Positions 33,813 through 64,000 are shown, counted from the stretch's first letter. The stretch: DNA of 64,000 nucleotides from Phoronis australis (GCA_002633005.1 NMRA01000178.1:472062-536061), one strand, 5' to 3'. Made by a program: numbers and translations. The notes: generated by a model not told the origin, from the sequence alone.

Positions 33813-34734
33813 ATGAGTTCCATAAGATCTCGTCACAAAAACAGGAAACCACATCAGAAAACTTCGAAGTCCAAGAAAAAGAAAGCGAGAAAATCGAGAT
33901 CAAGGCATGGAAAGCACAAGAATAAAAGTGCCAAACACATACTCTACAAGATACTCTACTCACATTTAAAAAACGCTATGCGTTATCAAATGCTTCAAAA
34001 TATGTACACGGGGTGCCCACTGTCGTGTATGCAACCTCTGTTTTCAGTACCTCCGATCATGTACCCCCACTTGATGGGCATGCCATACCCGCCATGTGGA
34101 CTGTCATGTGGACCGCCGTGTGGACCGTCATGTGAATCGCCGTGTGGACCCTCATGTGGACCGCCGTGTAAGTGTTGATTTCAATTTTTGATATTCACCT
34201 ACCATCGTTTTCAAAAACATTGTCTGTTCGTATGCAAGTTGTGAACCAAAAACTTAACCAAGCATTGCATATTTTTCTAGCTCATCTATTAGTAATTTAC
34301 ATTGTCGAATACAGTCGCGGACGAAAGCATCGTTTTCGTGAGATTTTTTAGAACGATTCTACTTCTCCCTTATGTAATTTTACGATGGTTTGTGAACACG
34401 TACATTCTGATCAAGACATATCAGTAGGCCCTACACGTCAAGTACGCGTGGTAAGACTACATCATCTACTACACATTCCCACCTGTACTAAGGCTCTTTC
34501 GTACTTTCAGGCGCCATGCCTCCAGCAAGCTGCTACCCACCAGCGTGTGTTCCTCCGAACGTAAGCGAACCCCCGATTGCATGCGACTGCTACTGCCACC
34601 AACCGTGCTGTCCATCTTCGATTACACCTACGTTTTACCAAGGACCTCCTTTATCAGCAATCCGATGCGTTTCAAGACCGATTAACAGACCTCACATTGG
34701 CCCCCGTTTCTCAGATGCAATGAGTTTGATTTGA
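33813..34734 (+). CDS. Cluster gene A, 192 aa: Lys/Arg/His-rich N-terminus plus CGPP/CGPS repeats and a Cys/Pro-rich tail
   Basis: Exon 1 33813-34167 (donor t|gtaagt), exon 2 34511-34734 (acceptor tactttcag); phase 1, 579 nt in frame. Confidence 0.8.
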
Positions 34735-35023
34735 TGGAAACGAATGAAACACCCAGTTTGTGTTAACTGGAACGTTATCATCGGTTTCTTTTTGTAGTTC
34801 AGCGTTATGTTGCAGAATGGAATCGGCACTAAAATCAGTAAAATAGTTAGCTTCTTGTGTGAGTATGTCGTCAACAAAGGAACACGTGACCCTGCACATT
34901 CCAAACCTAAATCTATAGTAGACCAACTACACGGTATTCTGAAATGATGTGAGGAATCGCTCATCATCTTTGCCAGGCGGGTGGTCATCGAATGGGGATG
35001 ACGGTAAAAGTTTTCCAGTAATC

Positions 35024-36301
35024 ATGAGGAGGGGGGTGCAGCTTGAAGACAAAGCTGTTAAAAGGTATCAAACAATGCAGTCGTTTAAAACATGTGACAC
35101 AGCAAGAAGAAAAAGCAGAACCAAGGAAAGGACGAAGAAAAATAGGAGCGGAAGAAAAAGACGTACTCGGTCTTGCCGCACGCCCTCTATCGTATCGATT
35201 AGTCGTCATGAGACTGATTCCTTCCTGCCCACTATAACTAGCTGGCTATCGAAATCTCACTCTGCGCAAGGACAGAGAAACTGCAGACTGAAAAGGAAGA
35301 AGAAGAAACAGAAGTCGGGGAAAGGAAAAGGTAAAGAAGTCCAAGCAAGGTAATACAACTAAAAGCTTGAAAGTTTTGAGGTACATGTAACGAAATACAG
35401 AAAATTGAATCAAATACCGGATTTTGCTTACTTGAGTTAGCGACGTTGCGTCTGAATAAAACGCCAGTTATGAACTAGAACAATAACAACGCTAGCTAAA
35501 CTGAAGTCCGTGAAAGACGGTTGCAAATTTCAGTATTTGATTCAATTTTTCTGCATCTTGTAAGACAACAAACTCATTCACCACTGAGGTAATGAGCCAT
35601 GGGCGTGACAAGTGTATTTTGAATAACACAGAAAGGATTATCAACCAAAGAAGGCAAACCTGTTTGTACGCTAACTATCTGTGTCCTGAATCTTTTTGTT
35701 TCTAGTATTTGCATTCATCATCCCTTTAAATAGACAAACCCTTGACATCAAACAATTTGCAAAATAAAGACACATTTTATTGCAGCAAGCCAAAAAGTAA
35801 CAAAGGAAGAGACCTTCTGAAATGCATAAGCAAAATCAAGAATGGATCTAAAAAATCCCGAAAGAAACAGAAAGCTAAAAAGGTCTCTATTAAAGATGCC
35901 CCAGCAAGACGAAGCCTTCGCCGTGCTAAGCCTAAGATCGTTCATCGTTTTATTGACCGATCCAAATACACCCTTGCCGGACAAACACGGGACCGTATTG
36001 GTAACATGTTCAAGTTGCCGCAACGTGTAAGAGCGTACAGGGCCAGCAGGCATTACACGATACCAAGAGTTAGCGGTCAGAACGTCCAAAACGCCCAGAA
36101 CCTGCAAAACGTACACCAAAACGTTCAGAACGTCCAGAACGTCCAGAACGCCGAAGTTGCTAAAGGTTCGTGTAGGAAGTGTTATACTGAATAATGCCGA
36201 GTTATATATTGTAACTTTGACCATTTTCAGATGTGGCAGACATTTGGGTGTCTGATCAGAAGGCATGTGCTGGTTCCGAGGTTGGCGAACAAGACGGCTA
36301 A
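35024..36301 (+). CDS. Cluster gene B, ~255-269 aa basic protein with YRASRHYTIPR motif and QNV repeats
   Basis: Exon 1 35024-35330 (g|gtaaag), exon 2 from 35734 (ccctttaaatag|ac). It ends either at stop 36194 or via a 65-nt phase-1 intron (36166-36230, ccattttcag) into 36231-36301. Start codon uncertain. Confidence 0.65.
35387..35567. mobile_element. MITE-like inverted repeat in gene B intron
   Basis: cagaaaattgaatcaaatac pairs with gtatttgattcaatttttctg. Confidence 0.6.
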
Positions 36302-36588
36302 AAGTCAAATTAGTACACCGAACTCTTAGTATATTATACATGGAAACTAATCATCATTGATGTGAGTACACAGAAACCCCGAAGCCATGTGTCCTTATAT
36401 TCTCAACAACAATCGCGAAAAAAATAATCGGGGTCCTCCGGAAAAATCCGGTACACGGAACAAAAACCTTGGTGGAAACGCCCATTTAATATGAATTTTA
36501 GCCGCCTCATTCCTGCCACTTCAAAACAAGCGTGATAAGCACAACACTAAATTAAGAATCCTAATATTCAGGGTCGAACACGTATCAT

Positions 36589-37299
36589 CATGTGGGACCG
36601 GGCGGGCAGCCGAATGCGTAACCAAAAATGACGTCATTGGAATGCAGACTAGATAGGTCTGCCGTATGATTTGATGTTAATCAATAACAAACCAGATCAA
36701 ACGTCTGACGTCTAATACGCTGATCTAACGACATGTTTACGCCATAACAAGTGGTTATCATTTCAAGCAAAAAAGCTCGGGGTTCTTTCAAGTTTGCTCA
36801 CTGTTGTGGGAGTCAAAACTGCTGTTCGATAAAATCTTCCGAGTCAGTTAGAGTAATCAAACGTTGAAACACTCACGAATGAGGGCAGTTTTTTTCCTTT
36901 TCGTTTCCCAAAATTCATTTTAAACCCGAACCTTAAAATTAACNCATGTGGGACCGGGCGGGCAGCCGAATGCGTAACCAAAAATGACGTCATTGGAATG
37001 CAGACTAGATAGGTCTGCCGTATGCTTTGATGTTAAACAATAACAAACCAGATCAAACGTCTGACGTCTAATACGCTGATCTAACGACATGTTTACGCCA
37101 TAACAAGTGGTTATCATTTCAAGCAAAAAAGCTCGGGGTTCTTTCAAGTTTGCTCACTGTTGTGGGAGTCAAAACTGCTGTTCGATAAAATCTTCCGAGT
37201 CAGTTAGAGTAATCAAACGTTGAAACACTCACGAATGAGGGCAGTTTTTTTCCTTTTCGTTTCCCAAAATTCATTTTAAACCCGAACCTTAAAATTAAC
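36589..37299. repeat. 355-bp near-identical tandem duplication around a single N (36944); likely assembly overlap
   Basis: 36589-36943 equals 36945-37299 with about 2 substitutions. Confidence 0.85.
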
Positions 37300-37600
37300 G
37301 CGTAAGTAAATAACGACATTTCTTTCCAACGTTTCGGTTCATTACTCTAAACCATTCTCAAGGAAACAGTTCACAGACTCAAAACAGGCGACACAGCTAG
37401 GTGGAGAAGAGACTGTACAGGTACACGCCAAAATGCATTGTGAAGGGGAGAAACCAGAAATCAAAACAGTTGGAGCTCAAATGATCCAATGTTTCTATTG
37501 AGGTAACACTAAGCAGGATTCCTTTATGAGGAGCCTGAAGGTGGTTATCCTTTGTCTAGGTTCTGAACACCAGAGCAATCTATGTGACAACTGTTCTGGC
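37300..37600 (-). mobile_element. Penelope-like retroelement 3' remnant
   Basis: Minus strand reads RLLIKES...LNRNIGSFELQLF* (typical GIY-YIG C-terminus, frameshifted), followed by cttgagaatggtt...aaccgaaacgttg pseudo-LTR-type motif. Confidence 0.55.
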
Positions 37601-38113
37601 CTAAATCAATTGTGATCATTTTAAACCCCACTAATGCAAATAAAATGCACTCACCAGCATCGCATTAGTGAACTGATTTTTATTTTTGGAAATTCAAAAG
37701 TCTATAATTAGTTCAACATTCGCAATATTTGTTCTCAAAAATATAACCGGTAGGTGTGTTGAAACTAAATTTGGTTGGTTTCCTTTTAATGTCGTTTCTC
37801 AAATCATTACGTTAACTTTTCAGTAGAGACACTTGATAAAAGGTGTGGGAAACAACAGGTTTGTGTAGAACACGATGATGTTTCTGCATTTTCTGGCGAC
37901 GTCTTTCACCACCAGACTCTTTCTGTATTCGTTAGTAACCGCTACTATATTTTGACTCATCCCAACTATCTCAGACAATATTTTGATTTAGAAAATTAAG
38001 CACGAATGTGTTCCAGCTACCATTGCCGGCGTGTCTGTAAACAATTATTTACAGTCAGGTCACGTGTCTAACAGTTTGCTTACGGTATCAGGTCCGTCAC
38101 GCAGATTTAGATT

Positions 38114-38395
38114 ACAATGCTTGTCACGCACGTTTAGCTGACAATGCCTGTCAGGCACATTTAGGTGGCAATGCCTGTCACATACATTCAGCTAACAATG
38201 CCTGTCAGGCACATTTAGGTGGCAATGCCTGTCACATACATTCAGCTAACAATGCCTGTCAGGCACATTTAGGTGGCAATGCCTGTCACATACATTCAGC
38301 TAACAATGCCTGTCACGCACATTTAGCTGGCAATGTTTGTCACGCACATTTAGCTGACAATGCTTGTCACGCACATTTAGCTGACGATGCCTGTC
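38114..38395. repeat. 27-bp minisatellite, ~10.4 copies, with an alternating A/B dimer in the middle
   Basis: Consensus (a/g)caatgcctgtcacgcacatttagctg. Confidence 0.9.
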
Positions 38396-38929
38396 TGTGT
38401 TGGCTGTTGTTTGGGAATGCCGTCAGAGCTTAAAGGCTAGACATATACAGATAACCTAGGGTAGTGTTGTTAAACAGTTGTGGGGGTTAATTGACAGAAA
38501 TCGCCATACCTTGTTAGTGAGTGCCATTAGCTTCTCGATTAGGCCTATTCAGTCAGTTATCGATAACTCGACTGCTGGTTTATTTAGGCGCGTCAGTCGT
38601 GTGGATTCTCCGTGAAGACGGAGTGGTTGATCCCGGGACCCTCCCAGTTAGAATAATTGCAATTGGATTATCCCCTATTGGTCTATTATGTCAATCATCT
38701 GTCCGACGCCTGCCCAGGTCATTTGAGTGTCATAATGATATCGTGGACTCTCTCAGACTCCTCCTTCGCTCGAAAATTATCTGTACTCCGGCGTCGGCTG
38801 AGTTCTGAGGATCCTGGCCAGAGCAATTTACTTTAATTTTAATTTTAATTTGCGTACTGTCTGTTATTTATCTCGTTCTCCCTTGAGGATGTCTTATAAT
38901 AAACAAATTCATAAACAAACTTTTTCCAG

Positions 38930-39372
38930 CAGCCAGCTCTAAAACTTCCAACGAGTCGGAATCTGAAATTGAAATCACGAATATCGTGTTTGCCCCTGGC
39001 GGACCTTCCTCGAACTGTAGCTGTTACGATTGCCGCAAGGGAGGCTGTGGTGCGTCGTGCTGTGACGAAGCTCAGGCTGCTGCGTGGATGTCGTATTTAG
39101 CACCAATATGCAATGCAACCGTATGCAACGCCATGATGGCCGGACGTTCAAAGCCCCCTCCTCTCCGACCACCACGACCTCCAGAAAACCCTGCCATGGG
39201 TCAGCTGAAACAACACGTGTTAGCATCACTTGCTAAAGAACTCGTTCTCGACAAATGCGTTGGCAACCAGTTCCTCATGAATGCTGCTAGAAATAGATTG
39301 GGTAAAATAATTTTTAACGATATGTTGGGGAAAAATTGTAAGCCTGGAGACTTCAGAAGAAGGCGTTACTGA
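38930..39372 (+). CDS. Cluster gene C terminal exon (~147 codons), Cys-rich then Pro-rich; upstream exon unresolved
   Basis: Acceptor ctttttccag, phase 1; ASSKTSNESESEIEITNIVFAPGGPSSNCSCYDCRKGGCGASCC...FRRRRY*; AATAAA at ~39380. Candidate first exon 36387-36450 (weak donor) or gene B exon 2. Confidence 0.7.
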
Positions 39373-39459
39373 CAGGATTAATAAACGTTTTATGTTTTAT
39401 GTACAATGGATGTATGTTTTGATGGCAGTGCTAAGGCCTCAGTACACGTGCTCTCGTAG

Positions 39460-39775
39460 CAGTCTCGGATTATCCGTAAGCTAATTAAGCTACAGTTTGT
39501 GGACCCCGAGCAAAATTGGGGACCAACACTTCTCCACAGGGGCTATTCCATGGGGCGACCGAGGGTGGCTATCCATTAATCTAACAAAACGGCTTGAAAA
39601 ATATGAGGAAGAGTAGCGGAAATTAGGGCCTGTCATGTCGCTGCAGGGGCCCCTCGAAATTTGCGACTATGGAGGTGGAGGCCGTCCAAAAATTGTGGCA
39701 AAAGGGGGCATTGTGCAATTAAGGGCCCTAGACTTTTTATAGCTTGGGACCCCGACAAATTTTAATCCGGCACTG
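39460..39775. mobile_element. hAT-like MITE
   Basis: cagtctcggatta ... taatccggcactg; flanks tctcgtag / cctcggag (6/8 match, possible 8-bp TSD). Confidence 0.5.
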
Positions 39776-40199
39776 CCTCGGAGATGATGCCAAGTGAGTG
39801 GTCGCATCTGCTTATTTTCTCACTGAATACAATTAAAATTGTATTGTTTAGCGGTTTATTCCAAAAGTGATGAATGCTTGAGAGAACTTTCGTTGTGTGA
39901 CACTCTACGTTGGACACTGGACATAATTTTGGGTTGGAATGTGTATTGGCGCTAAACAGTTAACATCTGTCGCAGGATTGTTTGATGACCACAGTTATCC
40001 TGTCTCTAGCGTGTATTATTTGGTTGGGAGGATTATCCACTTCATGTTTCACTATGTAGTAAGCCAAATCACAATCAAATATATATGTCGTCTGACGTCC
40101 CACATTATTTCAAGTGTTTTCCACTTCAGTGTGCCGATTGCGTACGCACAAACATCTGGCCTATCTCCATACTTGCATCTACGTTTCAGACCCTCCTCC

Positions 40200-40343
40200 C
40201 GTTCAGTAACGCTAGGACCTCGCTAAAAAGCAAGACTTCACGAGATTACGAGGTGAGACGTTGCCGTGTATTTTAAATGAGAACACGTGACTTTGACTAG
40301 GTTTTAGCTAGGTCCTACCGTAGGTCCTAGCGTCTACTGAACG
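40200..40343. mobile_element. MITE, CGTTCAGTAACGCTAGGACC family (copy 2)
   Basis: Same TIRs and internal sequence as 4239-4369. Confidence 0.75.
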
Positions 40344-40596
40344 CACGCCCTATTTGCAGTGCTGTAGTGGTAGAATTAGTGTTAAGTAGGCGCCCAAAGC
40401 CCACCGTATCACCTTGAGCACTGAACGTAACTTACGGTGCGTAGGCGCTACGTGCCAATTAAAAGGTGGTTGGCTGCGCCTACATGCGCCTACGCCCCAC
40501 TACTGATTATCTGCTGTCAAATATCCTCCCATATGTAGAGAGTGCAGAGACTGCATACTGAAACTAATTCCCAAGCATACGATCACATACCAAGAA

Positions 40597-40776
40597 TTAA
40601 CCTATTTTGAGTGACGCCTTAACTGATCAATCAGAACACAGCATTCTTGACACACCTTCGTTTCCAAGCCCCTATTTTACCCGACAAGCAACACGTTGTC
40701 GGGTAAAAACCTATTGTTTGTTTGTCTTTGTGTCACGTGACCTTTTGCAAAGGGACGGAGCTTGCGATAGGTCAAT
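40597..40776. mobile_element. Short non-autonomous derivative of the THAP element at 23640
   Basis: Shares caatca.aac.cagcattcttg.cacaccttcgt...ttttacccgacaa; ends attaacctat / ataggtcaat. Confidence 0.5.
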
Positions 40777-41948: not shown

Positions 41949-42537
41949 CCCGCTAGTTCCTTGCGTGTCCGCCAGAAGGTAAAGAACACGCAGGTATCAT
42001 TCAGTACCACGCGCTTGATCACTGCTGAATGCATCCTCGGCAGTCATTGGTAATTAGCTTTACAACAAAGAAAGAAAATGGCGGACTGTGAACGATTTCT
42101 AGTCTTGTGCGTAACAGTAAATATTTCTTACGGTTTCTACAGTAATGTTTAATAGATGCGAGTTTGAAGCAAAGCAAACACATCTGGCCCATTTAACCGG
42201 TATGTTATTTACACTGCGTGAATACAGGACAACAACGCAAACAAAAGTCAGCGACAGTAGAAAAATGCACACCGAAAAAGCACAACCACTACTTTCCGAT
42301 TCACACTTCTTGTACATATCCCAATTAAGCACCGATTTGTCTGTACACCAGACCACAAACTATATCCACATAATACACTTCCTCCATCAGTCATTTGCCA
42401 GTTTGTTTACGTAAAGTGCTACCTGTTGGTAATTCGACCAGCCAATCAGAAACGTTGGTGCAAAAAATTTCCCTAGGAAAATTAAATGAGATCTGCGTGT
42501 TCTCCACCCCCTAACGGACACGCAGGGAACCAGCGAG
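41949..42537. mobile_element. Non-autonomous Mutator-like (MULE) element: ~45-bp TIRs, 9-bp TSD AATTCCCAC
   Basis: cgctagttccttgcgtgtccgccagaaggtaaagaacacgcag vs ctgcgtgttctccaccccctaacggacacgcagggaaccagcg; aattcccac at 41940-41948 and 42538-42546. Confidence 0.8.
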
Positions 42538-43095: not shown

Positions 43096-44175
43096 ATGGT
43101 TGAAAGCAAAACATCACAAACAGTCGGGAATAAAAAGTCAAGTACAGCACTGAATGGAGAAGCCGAGCGGAAAGAAAGTGTGTCGCAAAATGGTAAAAGA
43201 AAACAGAATACACACAAAGCAAAGTTGCGATCAAAAAGCAAGAAGAAAAAATCCGGCACAAAGACTAGGTCAAGGTCAAAACTAAAAGTAAAGAGAAAGT
43301 CGCAAAGCAAGAAGACCAGAACAAAAAGCAAAAAAGGGAAAAAAACCCGTCGCAGGTCAAGAGGCAAAAGTTTGAGCTCAGGAACACCATCTGGAAACGA
43401 ACAACTTTCTTCAGCCCTCGCGCTTTTGGACAAACTCCGGTCAAGATCAAATCAAGATTGGGCAGAGGCAATAACGAATGAATCAAAGTCATTTGGCGAA
43501 CTCAAAGGGAGTTCCAACGTGGGTATTACAACGACTACGACGACTGACATGCTCAAACCTCCTGGAAAAGAAAACAGGAGAAAATCTTCATCTCTTCAAA
43601 CACGTTCCAGATCAAGCCACGAAAATACAAAGAGTTCAGTATCTGTCAAAGTTGACTCTGCATCAAAGGAAGATAAATTTTTCAATAATAATTCAAAAAC
43701 AACTACTACTAAACGTGCCAGCTACGTATCACGTTCGAGATCCAGTCTGAAACGACGACCTATTTCCAACAATGCGACGATCTCGTTGTTAGACGATAGT
43801 GACGATGAGCACGATTCAGTGTGTGGAAGCAGCAGCCGCAGCCGAAGCAAGGGCTCCAGCCGCTCCACCTGTAGTCAAATGAACAAAAAGAGAAAGAGAA
43901 AACGTAAAAAGAAAAAAGGGGGGAAGCGCAGAAAGAGGAGAACAAAGAAAAGGAGACGCAAACGAAGGAGAAAAAAGAGAAAAATGGTAATTTGCAAAAA
44001 AGCAGCCCTGAGGGTGTTCGGAAAAACAGGTCCTTGTTATGCCGGTCTGCGACCAGCGAAAATGCCAGGTTTCGGAAACGCGGGTAGAATGAAGACTATT
44101 CCAGAACATATTGCAGATCTGCAGTTTTGTATTGTGAAAGGAGGTGGCCCGTGTGAGTATTACCGTCGTCATTGA
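43096..44175 (+). CDS. Cluster gene D, 359 aa, intronless protamine-like Lys/Arg/Ser-rich protein with Cys-containing C-terminus
   Basis: Uninterrupted ORF, gaaATGG context, ~35-residue K/R tract, motifs ISNNATISL and KMPGFG; AATAAA at ~44298. Confidence 0.85.
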   Translation: MVESKTSQTVGNKKSSTALNGEAERKESVSQNGKRKQNTHKAKLRSKSKKKKSGTKTRSRSKLKVKRKSQSKKTRTKSKKGKKTRRRSRGKSLSSGTPSGNEQLSSALALLDKLRSRSNQDWAEAITNESKSFGELKGSSNVGITTTTTTDMLKPPGKENRRKSSSLQTRSRSSHENTKSSVSVKVDSASKEDKFFNNNSKTTTTKRASYVSRSRSSLKRRPISNNATISLLDDSDDEHDSVCGSSSRSRSKGSSRSTCSQMNKKRKRKRKKKKGGKRRKRRTKKRRRKRRRKKRKMVICKKAALRVFGKTGPCYAGLRPAKMPGFGNAGRMKTIPEHIADLQFCIVKGGGPCEYYRRH

Positions 44176-47251: not shown

Positions 47252-47260
47252 TTAACGTGT

Positions 47261-48110: not shown

Positions 48111-49177
48111 ATGTCTCATTTGAGTTCTTTTCCTGGTGAGCGTAAATCCTCACGGTATACGACGAGCAAGGCGAGCTTGTCGATTACGTTGACTACTACG
48201 AGTCTAATTCAGGTCAATGAGCACTTTGCCTGGGTGTGCGCAGGTACATGTAACCGCGTTGAGCAATAGTTCACTTGAGGCAGTCAGATGAGTTCGTAGC
48301 TCTCCGTCTGCCGGTGGCCCTTAGAAAGTATTCCTTATATTTAACGATCAGTTGATCGGAGGAAAGGGGCTCAGGGTGAACAACAATAAAACATTGCTTG
48401 AAATTATTTTCAATCCCTTCGCTAAGACGATGCCTCGTTTTATGTACAGTATAGATTGCAAATCCTCCTGTAGCCAAAGCTTAAGTTTTATGCAAGTGTG
48501 TGCACATAGCCTACCATCTTTAGGTGGATGACCTCGAGATGAAAACAGGGTCACCTAGAAATTCTCCAGGAACAGGAACAGTGTTTGCGTGTAACAAGGT
48601 ATTACGACTTCGTGATTGCATGCATGTTCAGTCTTACGGAATGTGTGTCCAGAAATGTATAATACTCCCGTTGAAGAGCCAGACTCAACACTAAATGGGG
48701 GAGGTGCATTTAAATATAGACTTGTACCAATTTCTCAATCATTTTGTCAACGAAGGTGATTGTTTTGATACTTATTTCTAATTAAGACAAGGCATTTAGT
48801 ATTGAAAAGTATACAGGGTTTGCGATAAACAACCAAATTCTTGGACGAAACATCATCTCTTTAAATTCCCGGGAGCGGCAAAATGCCAGACGAAAGTGTT
48901 CATCCAATTTTTTCTACCGACGTTGGATACAACTGTGATTTTGGTTTGTCAGTAAAAAGCAATATTGGTTTTACTTTCAGTACAATACGGAGCTTTCTGC
49001 CCAGGAATGATTCCAAAATTAGCAAAGAAGAAAGTAAGAATGTGCAAATGTAAGCATGGAAGATGCAAGAAAGAGAAAAGGCAGATGAACATGTTTGGAG
49101 GTGGTGGAATAACCGTGGCGACACCTTGCTGCCAGACTGCATGTACCCCGGGTATGATGTCAAATTATATGAACTAG
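48111..49177 (+). CDS. Cluster gene E, ~73 aa small basic Cys/Met-rich protein
   Basis: Terminal exon 48981-49177 (acceptor ttttactttcag, phase 1: QYGAFCPGMIPKLAKKKVRMCKCKHGRCKK...PCCQTACTPGMMSNYMN*), AATAAA at ~49267; candidate first exon 48111-48135 (MSHLSSFP g|gtgagc). Confidence 0.6.
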
Positions 49178-49775: not shown

Positions 49776-50190
49776 ATGTCATGTAAACGGAAGAACTCTG
49801 CTTTGAGAAATAGTAGCAATAAGAGACGGAGATTCAACATTACATCAAACAATAGCAAGCTTCTGGGAGAAACAGTAAGAAGGTCTATTACATTTAACAG
49901 TGACGATGAAGATATTCCTTCTAGCAGCTCTTTAACAAACCCAAGCACCAGACGAAGTTGTTTGAAAACGAAGAAGGAAAAGAAATCGAAGTCTAAAGGA
50001 GGCAATAAATCAAACGAGAGGGCGAAGAGCAAAAAGTCAATAAAGAAGAAACGCAAAAAGAAAAGAAAGAAACATCATAACTGTGTGGTGAAAACATGCA
50101 GAGTAGGCTGGCCCCCGTGCGTGTCTCCTTTCGTTGTTCCCGGCTTTGGGACCCCCAACACTGGCGCCCCCACAGGGGGACAGTCTACAG
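49776..50190 (+). CDS. Cluster gene F basic exon (Lys/Arg/Ser-rich, VVPGFG motif)
   Basis: ATG 49776, strong phase-1 donor acag|gtaaga at 50191. It can join 50756 (312-aa fusion with the Cys-repeat exon), 50298-50344 (short tail) or 50712 (immediate stop). Confidence 0.78.
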
Positions 50191-50742: not shown

Positions 50743-51279
50743 ATGTTGTCTTCAGGTAAAGGAAAAGGGAAGATAAAAGTAACTAACTACGTAAACCTGA
50801 TACCGCCAGAAGTCTGCGGCTACCCATTTCAACCTTCGCCATTTGGAATTGCCAATCGCATGAGCTCGTGCTACGACACCTGCGACCCCTGTTGCTCTAC
50901 CGGCAGCCCGTGTTGTCCTAGTCCAATCCCGTGTTGTGCCAACAACTGTGGACCATGTTGTTCTAACAACTGTGGACCATGTTCTTCTAACAACTGTGGA
51001 CCATGTTGTTCTAACAACTGTGGACCATGTTGTTCTAAAAACTGTGGACCATGTTGTTCTAAAAACTGTGGACCATGTTGTTCTAACAACTGCGGGCCAT
51101 GTTGTTCTAAAAACTGCGGGCCATGTTGTTCTAACAACTGCGGGCCATGCTGTTCTAACAACTGCGGACCATGTTGTGGCAACGACTGCTTCTGTGGATC
51201 CTGCTGCAACCCATGTGCTTCTTGTTGTCCTCCTCGATACGGAGACTGCTTCTCGCCTTCTCCGCCCTGTGCACCCTAA
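50743..51279 (+). CDS. Cys-rich CCS(N/K)NCGP-repeat polypeptide (exon 2 of gene F from 50756, or a separate 178-aa gene from ATG 50743)
   Basis: ORF with 10 octapeptide repeats; unique Cys/Pro-rich flanks in the same frame; synonymous variation between units (tgt/tgc, gga/ggg). Confidence 0.82.
   Translation: MLSSGKGKGKIKVTNYVNLIPPEVCGYPFQPSPFGIANRMSSCYDTCDPCCSTGSPCCPSPIPCCANNCGPCCSNNCGPCSSNNCGPCCSNNCGPCCSKNCGPCCSKNCGPCCSNNCGPCCSKNCGPCCSNNCGPCCSNNCGPCCGNDCFCGSCCNPCASCCPPRYGDCFSPSPPCAP
50932..51171 (+). repeat. Coding 24-bp tandem repeat x10
   Basis: tgttgttctaa(c/a)aactg(t/c)gg(a/g)cca. Confidence 0.95.
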
Positions 51280-55648: not shown

Positions 55649-57273
55649 GATTCTTAGTATTTAGTTACAAAGCTGACATGGCATTGAAATGTAGTGTACG
55701 TACCCCTGTGTAGTGTACGCACCCCGATGTGAACAAATGCCATGAAACAAAAATATTGCACGGTAAGTAAGCAACATTTGTCACAGACAGTTTCCTCCAT
55801 TAAAAATGCTAGGTTAAAAGGGTGTTAATTACAAATACATTTGTTTTGAGTGAAATATTAGCATTTGTGTAGTGTACGTACCCCTATATTTTAACACGTG
55901 CCTGTTTTCAAAGAATGACAGACCGATATGCACTCTTTATTTGTCCTCTTTGAATAGATTTGGTAAATGAACTAACTTTCAATGGATTCTAGGTATTTTT
56001 ATAAACCTGACAAATCATTGAAATGTAGTGTACGTACCTTCAACCTCTATGCTATAAAGTATTGCCCAGAATTATGTTTACATACTGCTGTTCTCATGAG
56101 CAATACTGATATTTCCAAAATAAATCTAGTCTGACAAAAAAACAATGGACATTATCAAATTTTGGGGCAATGAAATGCCACACAGGACTTGGCTAATACT
56201 AAACATCCTAGAAGATACGTCATGTGACAACTGATGTTGCAGAGGCAGGTTCTCTATCTCTCAAGACAACTTGCAATAAACCAACAAGTAGAGGCAACAC
56301 AAAACTCGAGACCATTCCATACATTTGTAACTTAGTCAAAGTTTGAAGTTGATTGACTGTGCGTAGTGTACGTACCCCCCAACCAATACCATTTTTACTG
56401 TTAACAAGTGGAACATTGAGCCTAGTATTGCTTTAACTATTTTAACCAACTGGTGAATGTATTGAAAACTAGACAAATATCACCGATCAATTTTTTGTAA
56501 AAAGTAGTTACTTGTCATTTTCTTTTCGTAAGAATCCTATTACAAGAGAGGAATTTCTCATTATACTGTGTTAAGATGTGCAATGTATCATCATCTAGAA
56601 CAACTTGATCAGCACGGTAATAACTTTTCTTACTTAAGTATGTGATACTTCTTCAATCTGATCAAGAACTGGTTAAATTAACAGCTCCCTTATGAATTTT
56701 TGCATGGTAGAAGTTGGCTGTGACCACAAGTTGTAGTGTAAGTACCCTTTTGTACAACTGTGATGCATTAGGCCATAAAATTTTATTCGGTGGTTCTTGT
56801 GCAAACACATTTTAGATTACAAACGTGGAATGATGGTACTTAAAAATAACCCAGCTTTTACAGTTATATGACAACCTTCATTTTTCACCAAAAGTGGCCA
56901 CCGAATATGGTCCTTGATTGTAAATTGGCCCGTACAGAACTTGTCACATTTAGTAAGAAGTGGTCTGCCGAGCACTAAACATGGTTGGGAGAGAGTGATC
57001 GTTTCCGCAGTAAAACATCTGGATTTTAGTTTGATATAGTGTTTTGTGATACGACAGTCTTACACGCTATCAAGTGCAATACAGGACACTTGCAAATACC
57101 AAGATTTAACTGAACGATTTGTAACATCTACTCATAACAATGGACACTACGTAGACAGAAACGAATGTCATAGAAACATTATCAAACGATAAGCAAATGA
57201 CAGCGCCAGATCGGTTATGAACATTTCCGGTATAGTCCACTTGCCGAATCCCAAAGAGACAGGGTTATAAATT

Positions 57274-58686
57274 ATGGTAAAGCGCAGGAAAACTCCGAAA
57301 CAGAAAACAAAAAAGCAGGCAAAGGGACAAAATACTCGCAGAAGAAAGCGAACACAATCAGCAAGAAGTGGAGCCGGATCACGAGGTAGAAATGGCAAAC
57401 GTTCTCGCTCAAATCCATGTTCCAAACGAGCTCGTCAAAATTCAAAGAGATCGCGCAGCCATTTAAGAAAGCCGGGAAAGAAACCAACTAGACGAACTAA
57501 CAAAAGCAGCAGTGCGAAACGGTGTAAACCAGCAAGTCAATATAGAAGAACTAGAGGCACAAAGTCCTTTAATAATTCAGCTATTATTGACGTAGATGGC
57601 ACGTCATCGAAACATATATCGACGTCATCCGTTACCAGCTCTAGGTCAAGTATTCCATCGAAAAGCAAAGATAAAGGAGACAAAAAAGACAAGGCGAAAA
57701 GACATAAAAAGAAGAACGGAAAATCTAAAAAGAAAAAAGGAGGAAAGGGGTGTTGCGCCAAGAAATCCGGATTCTGTTGTCGACCAAGCCTTATGGTGCC
57801 AATGCCAATGGGAGGTAACGTTTTACAGATTTTCCATTCAAATCATGTAAGGTTCTATACGATTCATTAAAGTTTTAAGGAGCAAAAAATCTTGCGTCAT
57901 GAATCCCAGTAAACTTCAACGAATATGGCATATCACTATTTTCATAGAATCAGCTGTTTTTGTAAAAACGTGTTTTACAGTTTTTGTTGAAAGTAGAAAT
58001 GACGCTTACTCATGTTGAATTAGTTTTTTTTTCTTTCTGGAACCTACATGTACGCCAAATCACCGTCAAGGCACCACATGAGTAGCTTTTGGAAATAATA
58101 TTAGGACGATGGTATGTCAACTAGAAGCGTCAACTGTTACAAATATCACCATTTCATTTCTCCTTATCTCACTTGTTGTTTTCTCTGGTGTCCTAATTCG
58201 TTTACATATCGTCTTTAACTTTCGGATCATAGTTACATCGTTGTTGATTTCATAGTTTTTTGTACATAAAGAAACTAGATGTTGGAATGCCGTGCAGTTA
58301 CCGACGGTTAAGAAGAGTAAAATAGTAAAAGTAAAACGACGAGCGTCGGTACTAAAATATATTAATTGATACATTCCCAACGTTTCGAGCGGTACGCGGT
58401 GACTCAGACTGCCGAATAGATAGATTTATAAAGTAGATGACCGCGTACCTCTCGAAACGTTGGGAATGTATCAATTAATATATTTTAGTACCGACGCTAG
58501 TCGTTTTACAATTGCTATTTTGTACATGTTTCTTGTAACCTGTGTCATGTTAAAGTAGCATGTTTTAGCCTAACTATTTTTAAATTAGGATGTTATGGTT
58601 GCGGGTGCCACCGTCCGCCATGCCGGCCAAGATGTCTTCCCATCCTGACACCAGCATATGTGATCGTCCACCGTTGGTTTTGCTAA
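57274..58686 (+). CDS. Cluster gene G, 212 aa: protamine-like basic exon plus Cys/Pro-rich exon
   Basis: Exon 1 57274-57814 (g|gtaacg), exon 2 58589-58686 (atttttaaattag; GCYGCGCHRPPCRPRCLPILTPAYVIVHRWFC*), phase 1, 639 nt; AATAAA at 58711. Confidence 0.82.
58331..58509. repeat. Long intronic inverted repeat: 70-bp arms, 39-nt loop
   Basis: 58331-58400 is the reverse complement of 58440-58509 with about 2 mismatches. Confidence 0.9.
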
Positions 58687-59255
58687 CAGAAAACTAAACC
58701 TTTACTGACTAATAAAGTAAAGTATGGCGTCAACTTTTGTATTTATTTTTAAACAAACACCGCTTTCATTGAAGCTGTCTCAGAGCAGCCATGCCATCCT
58801 CTAACGCTCTGTACTCATGACCAACAACCAAACATTCCTACCTATTCGTACTTTTGAACGTACGACCACGTAATGGGCATGCGTAGTCTATAACGGTTGG
58901 AAGACTATTCAAAACTGTTTCCACATATAGGGTACGTACCATGCTGACGACACCCTTCGATGCACAGGAGTAGTCGATGCCAGCGTATTCTGGTAGTGAC
59001 GTACATCCTGTAACAAAGACGATAAAATGAATAAATTTATCAATGGTATTCTTGAATGATTAGCATATTAGCATTAATGTTACGCTAGATGAAATACGCG
59101 TACATTGAACCAATTATCTCAACAGAACAATCAGTATCACGTGTACACAGACAATGACATCATTAAGCGAACACAAAACGCATGTTTCGAAATTGGTCTC
59201 TGTGAACAAATACTAGCCGATCACTTGCTGCGTTGTGTATCAGTGTTTGGGCAGT

Positions 59256-61727
59256 ATGCCTAGAAAGAGGAAGTCTTCGCAATCAACCAGTCAGGAAGGA
59301 GTGCGGAAAAGGAAAAGACAGCGTCCCAACACAAGTACGTCCATTAAGTCGACATATGACAACGTCAGTACTTCTTCCAGTGATGTCGTATTGAAGACAA
59401 CTCGGCATAGGTCTTTGGCGTGCGCAAAAAAGGATAGAACCAGAAGTAGGTCCCAAACTTCATCTCGTACAGGACAAAACGGGGCTACAGCACGAGGAAG
59501 CCGTAAAACGCGTGGTGTTTCGAGGCGAAGAAGCGATAAACTGTCAGCAAACAATTCGGCCTTTATTGATGAGTTGTCTTCTTCGGGCAGCTCGATATCA
59601 TCTGGCAGCAGTTACCGGTCGAATGCAAAAAGGAAGAAAAAGAAACAAGAAAAGAAAAGTTCGTTTAAAAACGGAAAAGAAATTAAAATGAAAGGTAGAA
59701 AGAAGGAAATAGCTACAAGAGGAAAAGACATAAGAAGAGCTAAAAGTGAAGGAAGAAGGAAAGGTACGTGTTACAGGAAAAATAAAGCCAAGGCAACATC
59801 CGGTGCAGCAAAAGTGAAAAAAATTCGTGAAAGATATAAAAAAGATAAAAAGAAAAACAAGAAAAAGAAAAATAAGGGTGAAGGTTTCCTAACAAAATTA
59901 AAAAGGCAGTTAAAGAAACTCGGGTTTGGAAAGAAAAAAACACGAAGACGAATAAAGCATATATGCAAACAAAAAGAGTGTAGACGATTCAGAGGATATC
60001 CTCCATTCTTAAAGACACCTTGCGCAGTGACGCAGCTACGAAGTTTATTGACTGGTCATGGCTATAGAATTCAAAACCCAGGCTTAAAGTTGGAGGATTT
60101 CAGATCAGTGATGCCCGGAATTGGAAAAAGTATGTGTTCATTTTTAATCTTCTTACTATTAACGTTTATTTATCTACTACGGATTTGGTCTCTACTGATG
60201 TTGCTTGGATGTTATGCAGCTTCACTGGTGAAAGTACGCAACGTTTCCACACGAGATGGTATGTCAGTTGCTAGTATGTCCGAATTACAGACATCGTCAT
60301 ATAGGGTGTTCTCAGACACTTGTCATGGTCCAAGGGTGAGATCCTAAGAGTGTTATTTGACACAGAAGCAAAAATATTTGGTAGAGTTCAATAGCTATCT
60401 CGCAGCGAGAAAAAGCTAGCCAAAATCACTAGCTCTCAATGAAAATTCACGGCAATATCTCGGGTATACTAGAGACGGCTTGCTTTTTAGCGAGGTCCTA
60501 GCGTTATTGAACTTGTTAATAAGACGTCAAAAATAGACAAGAGAAACCACTTTCAGTTGTTAATGAGCGGCATTCATTTCAAAATTACCATAAACTAGTT
60601 CAACTGACTCCACCACTCACACCAACTTTGGCGGTAGAGCGTTTTTTTCGCTGAACTGACAAACTATGTAATTCTCTTGCTGCAACCTAAAGAACACACA
60701 AAATGAGACTGCTTTTAAACAAATGCTTTGTACTGTTTTCCCTTCCTAATTGTATAGATGGCCTTTCTCACCAGTCTCACGATTTGCAGCTGCTTTATCC
60801 TGCGTCTTTCGTTCAAACGCAATTACATATTACTACGTTAATGCAATGAATTTCATTTTTAATTTATTTGCCTTAACGATGAGTCTGTATACATCAGTGA
60901 GAGTGGCCGAGAGTTCTCAGTCAGACTTAATGAATACAGGGCGGAGGTGGATGAGCTATCTCAGCTGAGGGTCACACGTTAAGAGATGGTCTGAGGTGGA
61001 GAGCACTGTAAACAAATCTGCAGTGGCTGATCGTGGTCTTGGTTTTAATCACGTAATTAACTGGGATGATGCACTTCCTGTTGGGTCAGAGGGTAATCTA
61101 AGATCTAGAGGGATAAGAGAGTCAATCTGGGTCAGGAAAAGTGGTTCAGTCGTGAACAGAGACGACGGAGGTTACATGTTGTCTAAAATTTGGAACAGCC
61201 TGATCACCACGCCACCTAGCGTCCAATAACTTCGAAAGATGGCTGCTGATAGGAGCCGAAACTGTCAAGGTACTCATGTTTTTTCTGGTTGTGAAAATAA
61301 GAAACTTTTACGCATTCTCGATTTATTTTGTGCTGCATATTGTTTTATGCTTCCATTCGTTATGATTTATTTTGTGCATCATTCAAGTGAGCCCTGGGAA
61401 GGACAGCAGTTTTGGCACTAAACTAAAGGTTTCATTTAAATTTTATTTCAAGAAAATCAGAAATACTGCGTCACTAGTTACATCAACGTCTCCACATCCA
61501 GCAGCAGCGACACCTGTTGCAAGAGGTACAGCTCGTGTAGCCGGCAATCGTGCTTCTCGTCGGGACACGCTATCAACCCGCGGGACTGCTGTGACTGTAA
61601 AGGCGACCCCTGTTGTATCAGAGCCCGATGCCGGGCGAAACCACCACATCACGACCCACGACACTGTCCTATAAGATTTCCCATCCCCGCACCACCACCA
61701 GTTATATTCACTGCGAGGTGTATTTAA
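59256..61727 (+). CDS. Cluster gene H, ~382-395 aa: long Lys/Arg/Ser-rich exon plus Cys-rich exon
   Basis: Exon 1 59256-60129 (a|gtatgt), optional 39-nt exon 60220-60258 (ttatgcag / g|gtatgt), last exon 61453-61727 (ttatttcaag; NQKYCVTSYINVSTSSSSDTCCKR...DCCDCKGDPCCIRARC...CI*). All phase 1; AATAAA at ~61773. Confidence 0.8.
60386..60512. mobile_element. MITE, CGTTCAGTAACGCTAGGACC family (copy 3, inverted, diverged)
   Basis: ttgctttttagcgaggtcctagcgttattgaac is the reverse complement of the left end of the 40200 copy. Confidence 0.6.
60985..61310 (+). mobile_element. 5'-truncated Penelope-like element (GIY-YIG endonuclease C-terminus plus pseudo-LTR)
   Basis: KSAVAD....NHVINWD...R.IRESIWVRK....NRDDGGYMLSKIWNSL is the characteristic C-terminus; followed by gatggct...agccgaaac. 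Confidence 0.8.
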
Positions 61728-62131
61728 ACAAACTCCATTATCCTAATTCAGATGTACCAGCAATACACGTGTAATAAATGAGTTTACTTGGATTGTTGAC
61801 TTTGAATCATCATATACAATGACACTCGCGTAATTCATGTAAATAAGTCGAGCAAGACAATTGGACATACGTAACGGACAAAACAAACAGTTATGTAAGC
61901 AATAATATTTAGCGCAATGGCAGGCGACGTTGAAATGTACAACAGTTTACATGTATAAGATGATGGCGAAAATGAAGATAAGTAAGAAAGGACAAACATG
62001 GTTGCAAAACGTTCTTGGAGAACAGAGCAATGCGTACTGTTGGACAGTCCTTCATCGCCCGCCATTAATTGACAATTCTCGAATGTCTGATAAACTCAAG
62101 TTTCACGAAACTACAACGTGAGAAACAGAAC

Positions 62132-64000
62132 ATGGCGGAGGTGGCCCAGTTGGTCAATTCATGGGTTTCAGTGGGTAACAAAAATTCCTATAAGTTAACT
62201 GGAAATAATAACACCAGCAACAAACACGGAAGAAACCAACGAGGTCCAGGCATAACTATGATACGAAACCCAGCCTACGTTTGGGCTGATGCAAGCTTGA
62301 ATACTTATTGTACCAGTGCTCCGGCGGCACACAGTGACATCTTGAAGACATTAGAAAAAAGGGTCCCAACATGGAAACACAGAGGAACTGAAAAGGATAG
62401 AGAAAGAAAGGCACAGAGTGTGATATCTAGAATGTACAATTTAAACGATATCCGCGATCCTGCTTACGTTCCAATGTTCAATTCAAATTCTTTGCCTATG
62501 CCGATGTCTGCTAATAACTCCTCTGAGCAATCCATGATTACGCTAAGTGATAACTTTGTTAGAAAACAGAAGAAAAGATATGAAAAGCGAAACTACAGCA
62601 GCAGAAATAGTCGAATTGGACGAGGCATCCTGAAAGCCAAAGGAAGCGGTGGCTCAGGGAAACGGATTAAACTTCTAATTGATGACTCTGACACGCGAGA
62701 CAGCAGCAAAGATCCAGGGAGAGACGACTCGTCCACCGACGCGTCCGGATATCATCGACAGGCTACACAAAAGAAGAAGAAAAAGAAGGCACCAAAACAA
62801 GTACAACTTGGAGACGACGACAACGAAAAAACTACTAATAAAAAGAAGAAAAAGAAGAAACGTCCGCCGGGAGTCGAAGATGAAAGAATGGGAAATAAAA
62901 GACATTCCCCAGATCACCCAACTGATCCTAAAAGAAAAAGAAAGGGTGGGAAGAAAAAAGGAAAAGGAAAATCGCCTTCTTCTGAGGATAATATAGGGCG
63001 TAAAGGAGGGAAGCCTAAAGGGTCCAAGAGAAAAAGAACGTCTTCCGAAGACAGTGCAAGCAATAAGCCTAAGGAAAAGATGCAACATGGCCGTAAAAAA
63101 GGAAAAACGACATCTGGTGACGGAGGGGACAAACGGCGTGACCGCAAAAAAGGAAGAACATCGTCTGACTACAGTGCAGATAGCACAGGGAGCAAACATC
63201 GTGGCCACAAAAGGGGAAGAACAAAGTCTGATGACAGCGCAGACAGCAGAGGGAGGACACATCGTGGCCACAAAAAACGAAAGTCATCGTCTGATGACAG
63301 CGCAGATAGTAGAGGAGAGAAACGGGGTGGCCACAAAAAAGAAAAGACGTCATCTGGCGACAAGGCAGGAAGCAAGGGAAAGAAACGTCATGAGGTCAAA
63401 AAACGAAAGACTTCCTCTGAGGAAAGTGCAGGCAGCGAACGGGGAAAGAAAAGAAAGAGAAGCATTAAAGAAATAGAAGGTAGCCATGATAGAAAGCGTT
63501 CACAAAGATCGGTCTTAAGTAAATTAAAGGGTAAGAAAACTATTAAAGGAAGAGCGAAGAAGGGACCTGATAAAGGGTCTTCACGAGACAGTGGAATCCG
63601 TAAACATGGAAGCAGAGGGTCATTGAAAGGAGGTCCAGGTGGTAAAGCGAGGGGCAGAGGTAAAGGAAGTCAACAGAGTTTACATGGGCGAGGAAGAGGA
63701 ATGACTGAAGGAGTTGGTCGAGGAAGAGGACGAGGCCGGGGAAGAGGGCGGAAAGGGCTTAGGCAGGGGGATGAAGAAGAGGCTACCCAGAAAATAGGCA
63801 CCGGAAGGCGACTACACGATCTTTATAATATTGGGAAAGGGTTTGTTGGTGATCTACTAAACGTATGGCGACGGGTTGCTTCCTATGAAGGAGAGGGGAG
63901 GAAGAGAGATCCGTCTCATATTCCCAAGTTTGTGAGCAATCGTCCAGGCAAGACCTACCGATCAGGTCGTCATTACACTGTTCCACGAAGTACGAAGGAA
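62132..64000 (+). CDS. Cluster gene I, at least 623 aa, runs off the window: basic protein with 21-aa S-D/E + K/R repeats, RG repeats and YRSGRHYTVPR motif
   Basis: aacATGG at 62132 after an in-frame stop at 62066; I read no stop to base 64000 (so it is absent from the ORF track); MAEVAQLVNSW...IRNPAYV...IRDPAYV...GRGRGRGRGRG...YRSGRHYTVPRSTKE. Confidence 0.85.
   Translation, partial: MAEVAQLVNSWVSVGNKNSYKLTGNNNTSNKHGRNQRGPGITMIRNPAYVWADASLNTYCTSAPAAHSDILKTLEKRVPTWKHRGTEKDRERKAQSVISRMYNLNDIRDPAYVPMFNSNSLPMPMSANNSSEQSMITLSDNFVRKQKKRYEKRNYSSRNSRIGRGILKAKGSGGSGKRIKLLIDDSDTRDSSKDPGRDDSSTDASGYHRQATQKKKKKKAPKQVQLGDDDNEKTTNKKKKKKKRPPGVEDERMGNKRHSPDHPTDPKRKRKGGKKKGKGKSPSSEDNIGRKGGKPKGSKRKRTSSEDSASNKPKEKMQHGRKKGKTTSGDGGDKRRDRKKGRTSSDYSADSTGSKHRGHKRGRTKSDDSADSRGRTHRGHKKRKSSSDDSADSRGEKRGGHKKEKTSSGDKAGSKGKKRHEVKKRKTSSEESAGSERGKKRKRSIKEIEGSHDRKRSQRSVLSKLKGKKTIKGRAKKGPDKGSSRDSGIRKHGSRGSLKGGPGGKARGRGKGSQQSLHGRGRGMTEGVGRGRGRGRGRGRKGLRQGDEEEATQKIGTGRRLHDLYNIGKGFVGDLLNVWRRVASYEGEGRKRDPSHIPKFVSNRPGKTYRSGRHYTVPRSTKE
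62981..63460 (+). repeat. Coding ~63-bp (21-aa) degenerate tandem repeat, ~8 units
   Basis: For example SDYSADSTGSKHRGHKRGRTK / SDDSADSRGRTHRGHKKRKSS / SDDSADSRGEKRGGHKKEKTS / SGDKAGSKGKKRHEVKKRKTS. Confidence 0.85.

What the first reader, a model, noticed from the sequence alone, without database searches (positions are those of the whole stretch)
33813..64000. Co-oriented array of ~9-10 orphan genes pairing protamine-like basic domains with Cys/Pro-rich modules: candidate undescribed sperm chromatin/structural protein locus
Seen: over 30 kb every non-transposon coding unit I found (A 33813, B 35024, C 38930, D 43096, E 48981, F 49776/50743, G 57274, H 59256, I 62132) is on the + strand, shows no obvious signal peptide, and is K/R/S-rich, Cys/Pro-rich or both. 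The usual order is basic block, Ser-rich block, poly-K/R tract, Cys, then a Cys/Pro tail. Known: K/R/S-rich composition typifies protamine-like sperm nuclear basic proteins and cylicins; CGP/CxP repeats typify Drosophila Mst84D/Mst87F and mammalian ODF1. I see no histone H1 winged-helix domain. Inference: a lineage-specific, fast-evolving gene complex whose products could bind DNA and cross-link via disulphides or Zn. The array continues past the window edge.
Basis: partly seen in the sequence, partly recalled or inferred. Interest (0 to 1): 0.9.

Follow-up and report, generated by a model that had tools for sequence, protein, structure and literature searches.

The report
Seven-gene cluster of likely sperm proteins
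In an unidentified animal, likely an invertebrate, seven neighbouring genes (six shown to be spliced, the seventh cut off by the window edge) are switched on together in some samples and silent in another, and they encode strongly basic proteins, six with cysteine-rich tails, that likely help build or pack the sperm cell and match no known family in our searches.

Summary
The array is real, but it holds seven genes, not 9-10. All seven are transcribed on the + strand in runs X2 and X3 and silent in X4, while a neighbouring acyltransferase-like gene is equally low in all three. The products are 192 to 623+ aa, pI 9.1-11.7, with no signal-peptide-like N-terminus. Six complete genes share one plan: basic K/R/S-rich part, phase-1 last intron (6 of 6), Cys/Pro-rich end. 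No homologue was found, but the same database also missed the control neighbour, so 'orphan' is weakly tested. No H1 winged helix, protamine, cylicin or ODF1 domain was detected; only F faintly touches the Mst84D-type MSSP model (E 1.4). The tissues are unknown, so testis expression is inferred, not shown. Best reading: a co-regulated cluster of spermatid structural proteins that bind DNA or the nuclear surface through basic tracts and cross-link through cysteines (about 45%; any sperm role about 65-70%). A new variant of a known kind; interest 0.55.

The parts
33813..34167 (+). Gene A coding exon 1: K/R/S/H-rich N-terminus, then Pro/Met-rich part with CGP repeats (gene A = 192 aa, pI 9.6, 17 Cys)
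   Evidence: ORF; joint 34167>34511 GT..AG in 36/60/0 reads of X2/X3/X4; model
34511..34734 (+). Gene A last coding exon, 12% Cys, 22% Pro
   Evidence: X1 contig at 34564-34741
35024..35349 (+). Gene BC coding exon 1, K/R-rich (gene BC = 382 aa, pI 10.9, 14 Cys)
   Evidence: joint to 35786 in 153/157/0 reads
35786..36165 (+).
   Evidence: joints; motif reached by 0 of 500 shuffles
38930..39372 (+).
   Evidence: joints 105/101/0 and 39/12/0 reads; AATAAA at 39380
43096..44152 (+). Gene DE exon 1: basic, Ser-rich, 13-residue K/R run, Cys (gene DE = 417 aa, pI 11.3); RNA 5' ends pile up at 43040
   Evidence: depth 373/307/0; joint 44152>48981 in 160/155/0 reads
48981..49177 (+).
   Evidence: AATAAA at 49267
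49776..50190 (+). Gene F exon 1: Ser/Asn-rich, then poly-K, then Cys/Pro (gene F = 312 aa, 52 Cys); start codon inferred as first in-frame ATG
   Evidence: joint to 50756 in 44/42/0 reads
50756..51279 (+). Gene F last exon, 27% Cys, about 10 copies of an 8-residue CGP-containing repeat (24-bp period, 50932-51177)
   Evidence: faint MSSP PF03940 hit, E 1.4
57274..57814 (+). Gene G exon 1, the most protamine-like member (gene G = 212 aa, K+R 31%, pI 11.7); RNA 5' ends at 57187
   Evidence: depth 81/63/0; joint to 58589 in 106/81/0 reads and one X1 contig
58589..58686 (+). Gene G last exon, 32 aa, 19% Cys; AATAAA at 58711, read 3' ends at 58728
59256..60129 (+). Gene H exon 1, basic/Ser-rich/poly-K (gene H = 382 aa, pI 11.0, 18 Cys)
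   Evidence: depth 79/66/0; joint 60129>61453 in 33/39/0 reads
61239..61269 (+). Small upstream exon spliced to H's last exon. From the ATG at 61239 it would give a 101-aa Cys/Pro-only form without the basic half; its role as a first exon is inferred
   Evidence: joint 61269>61453 in 15/13/0 reads; in-frame translation
61453..61727 (+). Gene H last exon, 14% Cys, 12% Pro; AATAAA at 61773
62132..64000 (+). Gene I, open ORF of at least 623 aa running off the window; K/R/S/G/D-rich with 21-residue (63-bp) repeats, 1 Cys
33390..33407 (+). 18-nt element upstream of A, nearly identical to 34861-34877 upstream of BC; possible shared promoter element, not significant after 28 comparisons
   Evidence: score reached by 4% of random pairs; X3 5' ends at 33429

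Best explanation
Seven same-strand genes, six shown to be spliced, are switched on and off together, and they likely encode structural proteins of the maturing sperm cell whose basic halves would bind DNA or the nuclear surface and whose cysteine-rich tails would cross-link into a stiff scaffold. SHOWN: exon structure, + strand transcription, joint on/off behaviour across three runs of one study, composition, no hydrophobic leader. INFERRED: (1) the active samples hold testis and the silent one does not; (2) the proteins stay inside the cell and enter or coat the spermatid nucleus, because they have long K/R runs and no signal peptide; (3) K/R tracts neutralise DNA phosphate, tuned by phosphorylation of the many Ser and RS/SR sites; (4) the Cys/Pro last exon forms disulphide or Zn bridges, as cysteines do in mammalian protamines (PMC5175393, passages); (5) the array grew by old tandem duplication of a gene with a basic exon, a phase-1 intron and a Cys exon, then diverged fast. 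The jobs are probably divided: G and DE are the best chromatin candidates; F and A (CGP repeats) are the likeliest tail or envelope cross-linkers; H, BC and I are larger perinuclear-type proteins.
For: Nine GT..AG joints seen in X2 and X3, none of 9 in X4; depth over bins holding the genes' exons about 14-373 in X2/X3 and 0-1.4 in X4. The control neighbour at 22924-25211 has depth 3.5/3.0/3.3 and 4.6/5.7/5.1 in X2/X3/X4. A second study (X1) shows listed pieces or joints for 4 of 7 genes: A, DE, G, I. All spliced models are open in frame, and the last intron is phase 1 in 6 of 6 (about 0.012 for any shared phase using recalled phase frequencies). Cys lie after the most basic 15-mer: 17/17 A, 11/14 BC, 10/12 DE, 50/52 F, 10/12 G, 16/18 H. 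The listed read indels inside DE's coding region keep the frame (4+2 together, 6, 3), while those in the UTRs do not (2, 5). pI 9.1-11.7, K+R 14-31%. F's last exon gives a faint hit to PF03940 'Male specific sperm protein' (E 1.4, 9 bits against a cutoff of 21.2). Known sperm loci combine the same traits: the Prm1/Prm2/Prm3/Tnp2 cluster is co-transcribed in round spermatids (PMC5175393, passages), and Mst84Da-d are needed for axonemal structure (10.64898/2026.10.22.761032, passages).
Against: The tissue and sex of every run are unknown, and no testis marker could be laid as a control (both lay calls used, no genome held). X2 and X3 share variants at similar frequencies (for example 60%/55% at 43075 and 61%/65% at 43698), so they are probably not independent; the on/off contrast is in effect one comparison. 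Depth is 10-203 per Gb read, roughly tens to a few hundred TPM under my assumptions; bulk protamines in pure testis are usually far higher (recalled). At 21-69 kDa with Arg 5-14%, four of seven exceed the 6-40 kDa range given for PL proteins, and none is a protamine (PMC11607694, passages). Only 2 of 21 tail pairs align beyond local shuffles, so paralogy is not shown by sequence. I has no Cys tail inside the window. No k-mer is shared by the seven upstream regions beyond chance.
Confidence: 0.45

Rival explanations
1. The genes are testis genes, but the products build sperm tail or midpiece accessory structures, working like Drosophila Mst84D/Mst87F or mammalian ODF1/SMCP: the basic half would bind acidic tubulin tails or mitochondria and the Cys/Pro half would polymerise by disulphides.
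For: CGP occurs 10 times in F and 4 times in A; A and F tails align (5 of 500 local shuffles reach the score); faint MSSP hit; moderate transcript level. That CGP repeats typify Mst84D and ODF1 is recalled; the term was absent from the one paper read on Mst84D.
Against: CGP is absent from 5 of 7 genes. Long K/R runs (13 residues in DE, 10 in F) look like nuclear import or DNA-binding tracts. No match at E below 0.2 to any solved chain for 3 of 3 pieces tested.
Confidence: 0.22
2. The cluster is a somatic hardening kit, an invertebrate analogue of keratin-associated or cornified-envelope gene complexes, active in one body tissue or stage: intracellular Cys/Pro proteins cross-linked into a tough structure.
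For: Co-oriented cluster, no signal peptides, Cys/Pro-rich; the Atlas lists keratin-associated clusters as weak look-alikes of F's last exon (scores 0.78 and 0.75); tissue unknown.
Against: Those scores are below 0.9 and in the range shuffled proteins reach. The proteins carry net charges of +22 to +102, which such proteins usually lack (recalled). CpG observed/expected 0.95 argues against a vertebrate.
Confidence: 0.15
3. The genes serve eggs, embryos or another stage-specific process as basic RNA- or chromatin-binding disordered proteins with metal-binding tails; the shared timing reflects one open chromatin domain rather than one structure.
For: Sample identity unknown; paralogy weak; low-level reads on both strands in non-coding bins in X2/X3 but not X4 (for example 41277-41943: 2.7/4.8/0).
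Against: The shared gene plan and 6 of 6 phase-1 last introns point to one family. The combination of K/R tracts and Cys is best known from sperm proteins (PMC11607694, PMC5175393, passages).
Confidence: 0.1
4. X4 is silent because the region is missing from that animal's DNA (sex-linked or presence/absence region), not because of tissue control.
For: X4 has essentially no reads in unique bins across the array; no DNA run was available.
Against: X4 has 1.39 depth in bin 35274-35940, though this may be a repeat; silent unique DNA is expected to lack RNA reads anyway; X2/X3 show three or more haplotypes in DE. This rival is compatible with a male function.
Confidence: 0.06

Closest known systems
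Protamine-like (PL-type) sperm nuclear basic proteins of marine invertebrates, such as Spisula PL-I
   Same: Lys+Arg-rich, Ser-rich, intracellular; G (23.7 kDa, K+R 31%), A and F fall in the 6-40 kDa range given in PMC11607694 (passages); Cys occurs sporadically in marine invertebrate SNBPs (same paper).
   Different: No H1/H5 winged-helix domain; Ala only 2-8% (PL proteins are Ala-rich, recalled); dedicated Cys/Pro last exon; four members are 43-69 kDa; seven divergent genes in one array.
Mammalian Prm1-Prm2-Prm3-Tnp2 cluster
   Same: Clustered, co-transcribed genes (Tnp2 has two exons) whose products pair basic tracts with Cys for disulphide or zinc bridging (PMC5175393, passages).
   Different: Much larger proteins (192 to 623+ aa against about 50-100 for Prm1/Prm2), Lys outnumbers Arg (K/R 1.1-2.1), no Pfam protamine or transition-protein hit, non-vertebrate genome.
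Drosophila Mst84Da-d / Mst87F (Pfam MSSP, PF03940)
   Same: Clustered; Cys-Gly-Pro repeats in F and A; faint profile hit for F (E 1.4).
   Different: Hit far below the cutoff (9 against 21.2 bits); here the repeats are fused to a basic exon; 5 of 7 genes have no CGP; the fly proteins are about 50-75 aa (recalled; the Pfam profile has 51 positions).
Mammalian cylicins (CYLC1/2)
   Same: Large, Lys-rich, pI above 10; gene I has internal K/S/D-rich repeats.
   Different: Cylicins are defined by repeated KKD/KKE (PMC10684152, passages); here 0-3 per protein, 1 in I; no cylicin Pfam hit.
Keratin-associated proteins / epidermal differentiation complex genes
   Same: Co-oriented cluster of low-complexity Cys/Pro proteins without signal peptides (family traits recalled).
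   Different: Strongly basic halves, coding region split by an intron, invertebrate-type genome, Atlas scores only 0.75-0.78.

Membership tests
Protamines (P-type SNBP) | 3-10 kDa, highly Arg-rich (PMC11607694) | tested here: not met
   21-69 kDa, Arg 4.8-13.7%; processing from a precursor cannot be excluded
H1-derived PL-type SNBP | Histone H1/H5 winged-helix domain | tested here: not met
   No Linker_histone hit in 15 of 15 exon pieces at E 10; a 17-residue HTH_33 hit in H (E 0.049, below cutoff) is a different family
PL-type SNBP (broad, compositional) | Lys+Arg-rich, 6-40 kDa | tested here: inconclusive
   G fits (23.7 kDa, K+R 31%); A and F fit in size but have K+R about 14%; BC, DE, H and I exceed 40 kDa
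Any SNBP | Present in sperm or spermatid chromatin | not testable with these tools
   Needs proteomics or antibodies
Any SNBP or sperm structural protein | Testis-restricted expression | tested here: inconclusive
   On in X1 (4 of 7 genes listed), X2 and X3, off in X4, but tissues are not given
Echinoid sperm histones SpH1/SpH2B | SPKK/SPRK-type repeats on a histone fold (recalled) | tested here: not met
   0 SP[KR][KR] motifs in 7 of 7 proteins; no histone Pfam hit
Mst84D/Mst87F (MSSP) | PF03940 at gathering score | tested here: not met
   9 bits against 21.2, F only
Mst84D/Mst87F (MSSP) | Tandem CGP repeats (recalled) | tested here: met
   Met by 2 of 7 only: F 10, A 4
ODF1 | Alpha-crystallin/HSP20 domain before the CxP repeats (recalled) | tested here: not met
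   No HSP20 hit in any exon piece
Cylicins | Repeated KKD/KKE motifs (PMC10684152) | tested here: not met
   0-3 per protein
Drosophila HMG-box SNBPs | HMG-box / protamine-like domain (recalled) | tested here: not met
   No such Pfam hit at E 10
Keratin-associated proteins | Keratin_B2/Keratin_matx profile match | tested here: not met
   No Pfam hit; Atlas look-alikes below 0.9

The most novel reading that the evidence does not exclude
An undescribed 'spermatid differentiation complex' in an invertebrate lineage: at least seven genes descended from one ancestor that fused a DNA-binding basic exon to a cross-linking cysteine exon. It would be an independent route to disulphide-stabilised sperm chromatin and envelope, unrelated to histone H1, with an internal start in H that would make a cysteine-only cross-linker.
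Probability: 0.3. Interest if true: 0.8.

Novelty: new variant of a known kind. Interest (0 to 1): 0.55.

Why it matters
Most described invertebrate sperm basic proteins are histones, H1-derived PL proteins or small protamines. A co-regulated array of large proteins that join basic tracts to cysteine tails, with no H1 domain, would be a separate origin of the 'basic plus cysteine' design of mammalian protamines and fly sperm proteins. It gives exact peptides to look for in sperm proteomes and a test case for fast evolution of clustered reproductive genes. If the tissue is somatic instead, it would be an invertebrate analogue of a cornification gene complex, which is also unusual.

Tried and rejected
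No whole genome is held, so synteny, the rest of gene I and further members could not be read. Homologue searches: D exon 1, 0 of 7,813 candidates; BC last exon, 0 hits at E 0.001 in 1.84 billion representatives (no control was run in that library); Atlas, no usable hit for H exon 1 and only sub-0.9 leads for F's last exon; PDB sequences, nothing better than E 0.2 for 3 pieces. Control: the neighbouring acyltransferase-like gene, which has a Pfam hit, also found 0 of 994 and 0 of 655 candidates, so these blanks are weak and the phylum stayed unknown. Exact look-up found 0 of 10 but is uninformative, because most queries were single-exon read-throughs and not the spliced proteins. Three metagenome loci (L001-L003) were rejected: the match centres on one 8-residue word, and in the two loci whose ORFs were listed it lies on the strand opposite a bacterial gene. 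AlphaFold single-sequence models were poor (pTM 0.28 and 0.25) and Foldseek gave nothing below E 3. Rfam 0 and tRNA 0. No shared promoter 6- or 7-mer beyond chance. The His/Ala/Cys ORF at 38041-38433 is a 27-bp minisatellite in BC intron 2 with depth about 2 or less, not a member. The 12 listed coding SNPs are 3 synonymous and 9 non-synonymous, too few and too selected to estimate selection. No RNA holder was on record in the index; X1 is a guessed RNA run. Five look-ups of earlier findings returned nothing. Ten paper searches listed no description of such a cluster; the library lacks most subscription journals, and no supplements were read.


Full report
SETTING. The window is animal DNA with about 41% GC and spliceosomal introns. 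CpG observed/expected is 0.95, which points to an invertebrate (recalled rule). No genome is held, and homologue searches with a neighbouring gene found nothing, so the phylum is unknown.

OBSERVATION. Nine ATG ORFs of 100 aa or more with at least 19% K+R lie in 33,500-64,000; seven are gene exons and two are overlapping frames within I. One hundred Markov simulations gave at most 3, and the left half of the window has 1. Minus-strand ORFs in the region are a THAP transposase, a repeat and three shadows of + strand genes.

GENE STRUCTURE FROM READS. Four runs were laid on 43001-63000 (likeness 88) and 22601-42600 (likeness 92). The listed joints include nine GT..AG junctions, with reads in X2/X3/X4: 34167>34511 (36/60/0), 35349>35786 (153/157/0), 36165>38930 (105/101/0), 36165>38933 (39/12/0), 44152>48981 (160/155/0), 50190>50756 (44/42/0), 57814>58589 (106/81/0), 60129>61453 (33/39/0) and 61269>61453 (15/13/0). 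The tables left out 46 and 121 weaker joints, so minor or non-coding upstream exons are not excluded. The models translate without internal stops: A 192 aa, BC 382, DE 417, F 312, G 212, H 382, and I at least 623 (open at the window edge; start codons are the first in-frame ATG). So there are seven genes, not 9-10. Four of the six complete genes plus H have an AATAAA after the stop as follows: BC, DE, G and H do; A and F do not show one in the stretch scanned. Read 5' ends pile up at 43040 and 57187.

EXPRESSION. First mates lie on the - strand, so the RNA is + strand, in agreement with the GT..AG ends. Depth over bins holding the genes' exons is about 14-373 in X2 and X3 and 0-1.4 in X4. The neighbouring acyltransferase-like gene (PapA_C hit, E 6e-8) has similar low depth in all three (3.5/3.0/3.3), and repeats are covered in all. 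X1, from another study, has listed pieces or joints for A, DE, G and I (4 of 7), including the spliced G joint. Listed indels in DE's coding region keep the frame (4+2 together, 6, 3), whereas UTR indels are 2 and 5 nt. This favours real protein coding, though only the best-supported rows were shown.

PROTEIN ANATOMY. pI 9.1-11.7, K+R 14-31%, 21-69 kDa; no hydrophobic leader or membrane stretch by a Kyte-Doolittle proxy. In six complete genes the last intron is phase 1 (6 of 6), and the last exon has 7-27% Cys and 6-22% Pro. Cysteines sit mostly after the most basic tract. F has 10 CGP and A has 4; the others have none. Short motifs recur among members: an NNS/NNA-x-hydrophobic-D motif in DE, G and H, PG(F/I)G in DE, F and H, and a V/I-T-x-Y/I-V/I motif at the start of the last exon in BC, F and H. 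These were picked by eye and are untested. In a rule-based comparison of tails only BC-I (0 of 500 local shuffles) and A-F (5 of 500) stood out among 21 pairs. A common origin is therefore likely from gene plan but not shown by alignment.

RELATIVES. None were found: Pfam gave nothing above cutoff for any array piece, and searches gave no true relative. The control neighbour was also missed in the word-based database, so this lineage is poorly covered and 'orphan' is only weakly tested. The one pointed lead is F's last exon touching PF03940 'Male specific sperm protein' at E 1.4, well under the cutoff.

MECHANISM. Most likely (0.45) these are spermatid structural proteins whose K/R tracts bind DNA or the nuclear surface and whose Cys/Pro tails cross-link by disulphides or zinc. 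The logic follows mammalian protamines, where Arg and Cys give DNA binding and inter-molecule bridges and the genes sit in a co-transcribed cluster (PMC5175393, passages). The main rival (0.22) is a tail or midpiece role like Mst84Da-d, which are needed for axonemal structure (10.64898/2026.10.22.761032, passages). A somatic hardening kit (0.15), an egg or stage-specific role (0.10) and absence of the DNA in X4 (0.06) remain open. The moderate transcript level (10-203 depth per Gb) argues against bulk protamine status unless the samples are mixed tissue.

COMPARISON. They may work like SNBPs or Mst84D-type proteins but are not members. They are too large and too Arg-poor for protamines and lack the winged helix of H1-derived PL proteins (definitions from PMC11607694, passages). 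They lack the KKD/KKE repeats of cylicins (PMC10684152, passages) and, by Pfam, the HSP20 domain of ODF1 (feature recalled). All other papers were seen as search listings only. Ten searches listed no such cluster; the library is incomplete and supplements were not read.

VERDICT. A real, spliced, co-regulated seven-gene array with a shared basic-plus-cysteine plan, not found in the databases or papers searched. Its sperm role is likely but unproven. New variant of a known kind; interest 0.55.

Noticed in passing
window 45949-47255: THAP-domain DNA transposon (PF05485, E 1e-13, minus strand) with 171-bp terminal inverted repeats (96.5% alike) inside the intron of gene DE. Reads show extra sequence on both sides of the single N near 46296, so the assembly has lost part of the element. 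Multi-copy, read on both strands in all runs.
   Followed up: partly
window 22924-25211: Acyltransferase/condensation-domain-like gene in at least two coding stretches (PapA_C hit, E 6e-8), low expression in X2-X4; no homologue found in two searches. Used as control.
   Followed up: partly
window 27937-29445: A repeat with a 450-bp period has about 1,000-fold, strongly + stranded read depth in X2, X3 and X4 and no long ORF; probably a multi-copy element in abundant transcripts.
   Followed up: no
window 38041-38433: 27-bp minisatellite in BC intron 2 that reads as a His/Ala/Cys repeat ORF (Plasmodium_HRP, E 1e-7, below cutoff); barely transcribed, probably not a gene.
   Followed up: yes
window 44175-44303: Read 3' ends at 44260 in X3 and an AATAAA near 44298 suggest an unspliced, intron-terminated form of D (359 aa) besides the spliced DE form.
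   Followed up: no
window 36589-37299, 26490-27576, 52118-55648: Near-identical duplicated blocks flanking N gaps; the first two (99% alike) look like scaffolding overlaps rather than true tandem copies.
   Followed up: no
window 1320-2297 (-) and 5948-6304 (-): Likely exons of a minus-strand gene (325-aa Ser/Pro/Arg-rich ORF and a 118-aa ORF) with no Pfam hit.
   Followed up: no
window 33390-33407 and 34861-34877: Near-identical 17-18-nt element upstream of A and BC, ending about 20 nt before A's read 5' ends at 33429; not significant across 28 comparisons.
   Followed up: partly
window 30605-31271 and 41277-41943: Low minus-strand transcription in X2 and X3 (depth 2-5) but not X4, in non-coding bins near and inside the array.
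   Followed up: no
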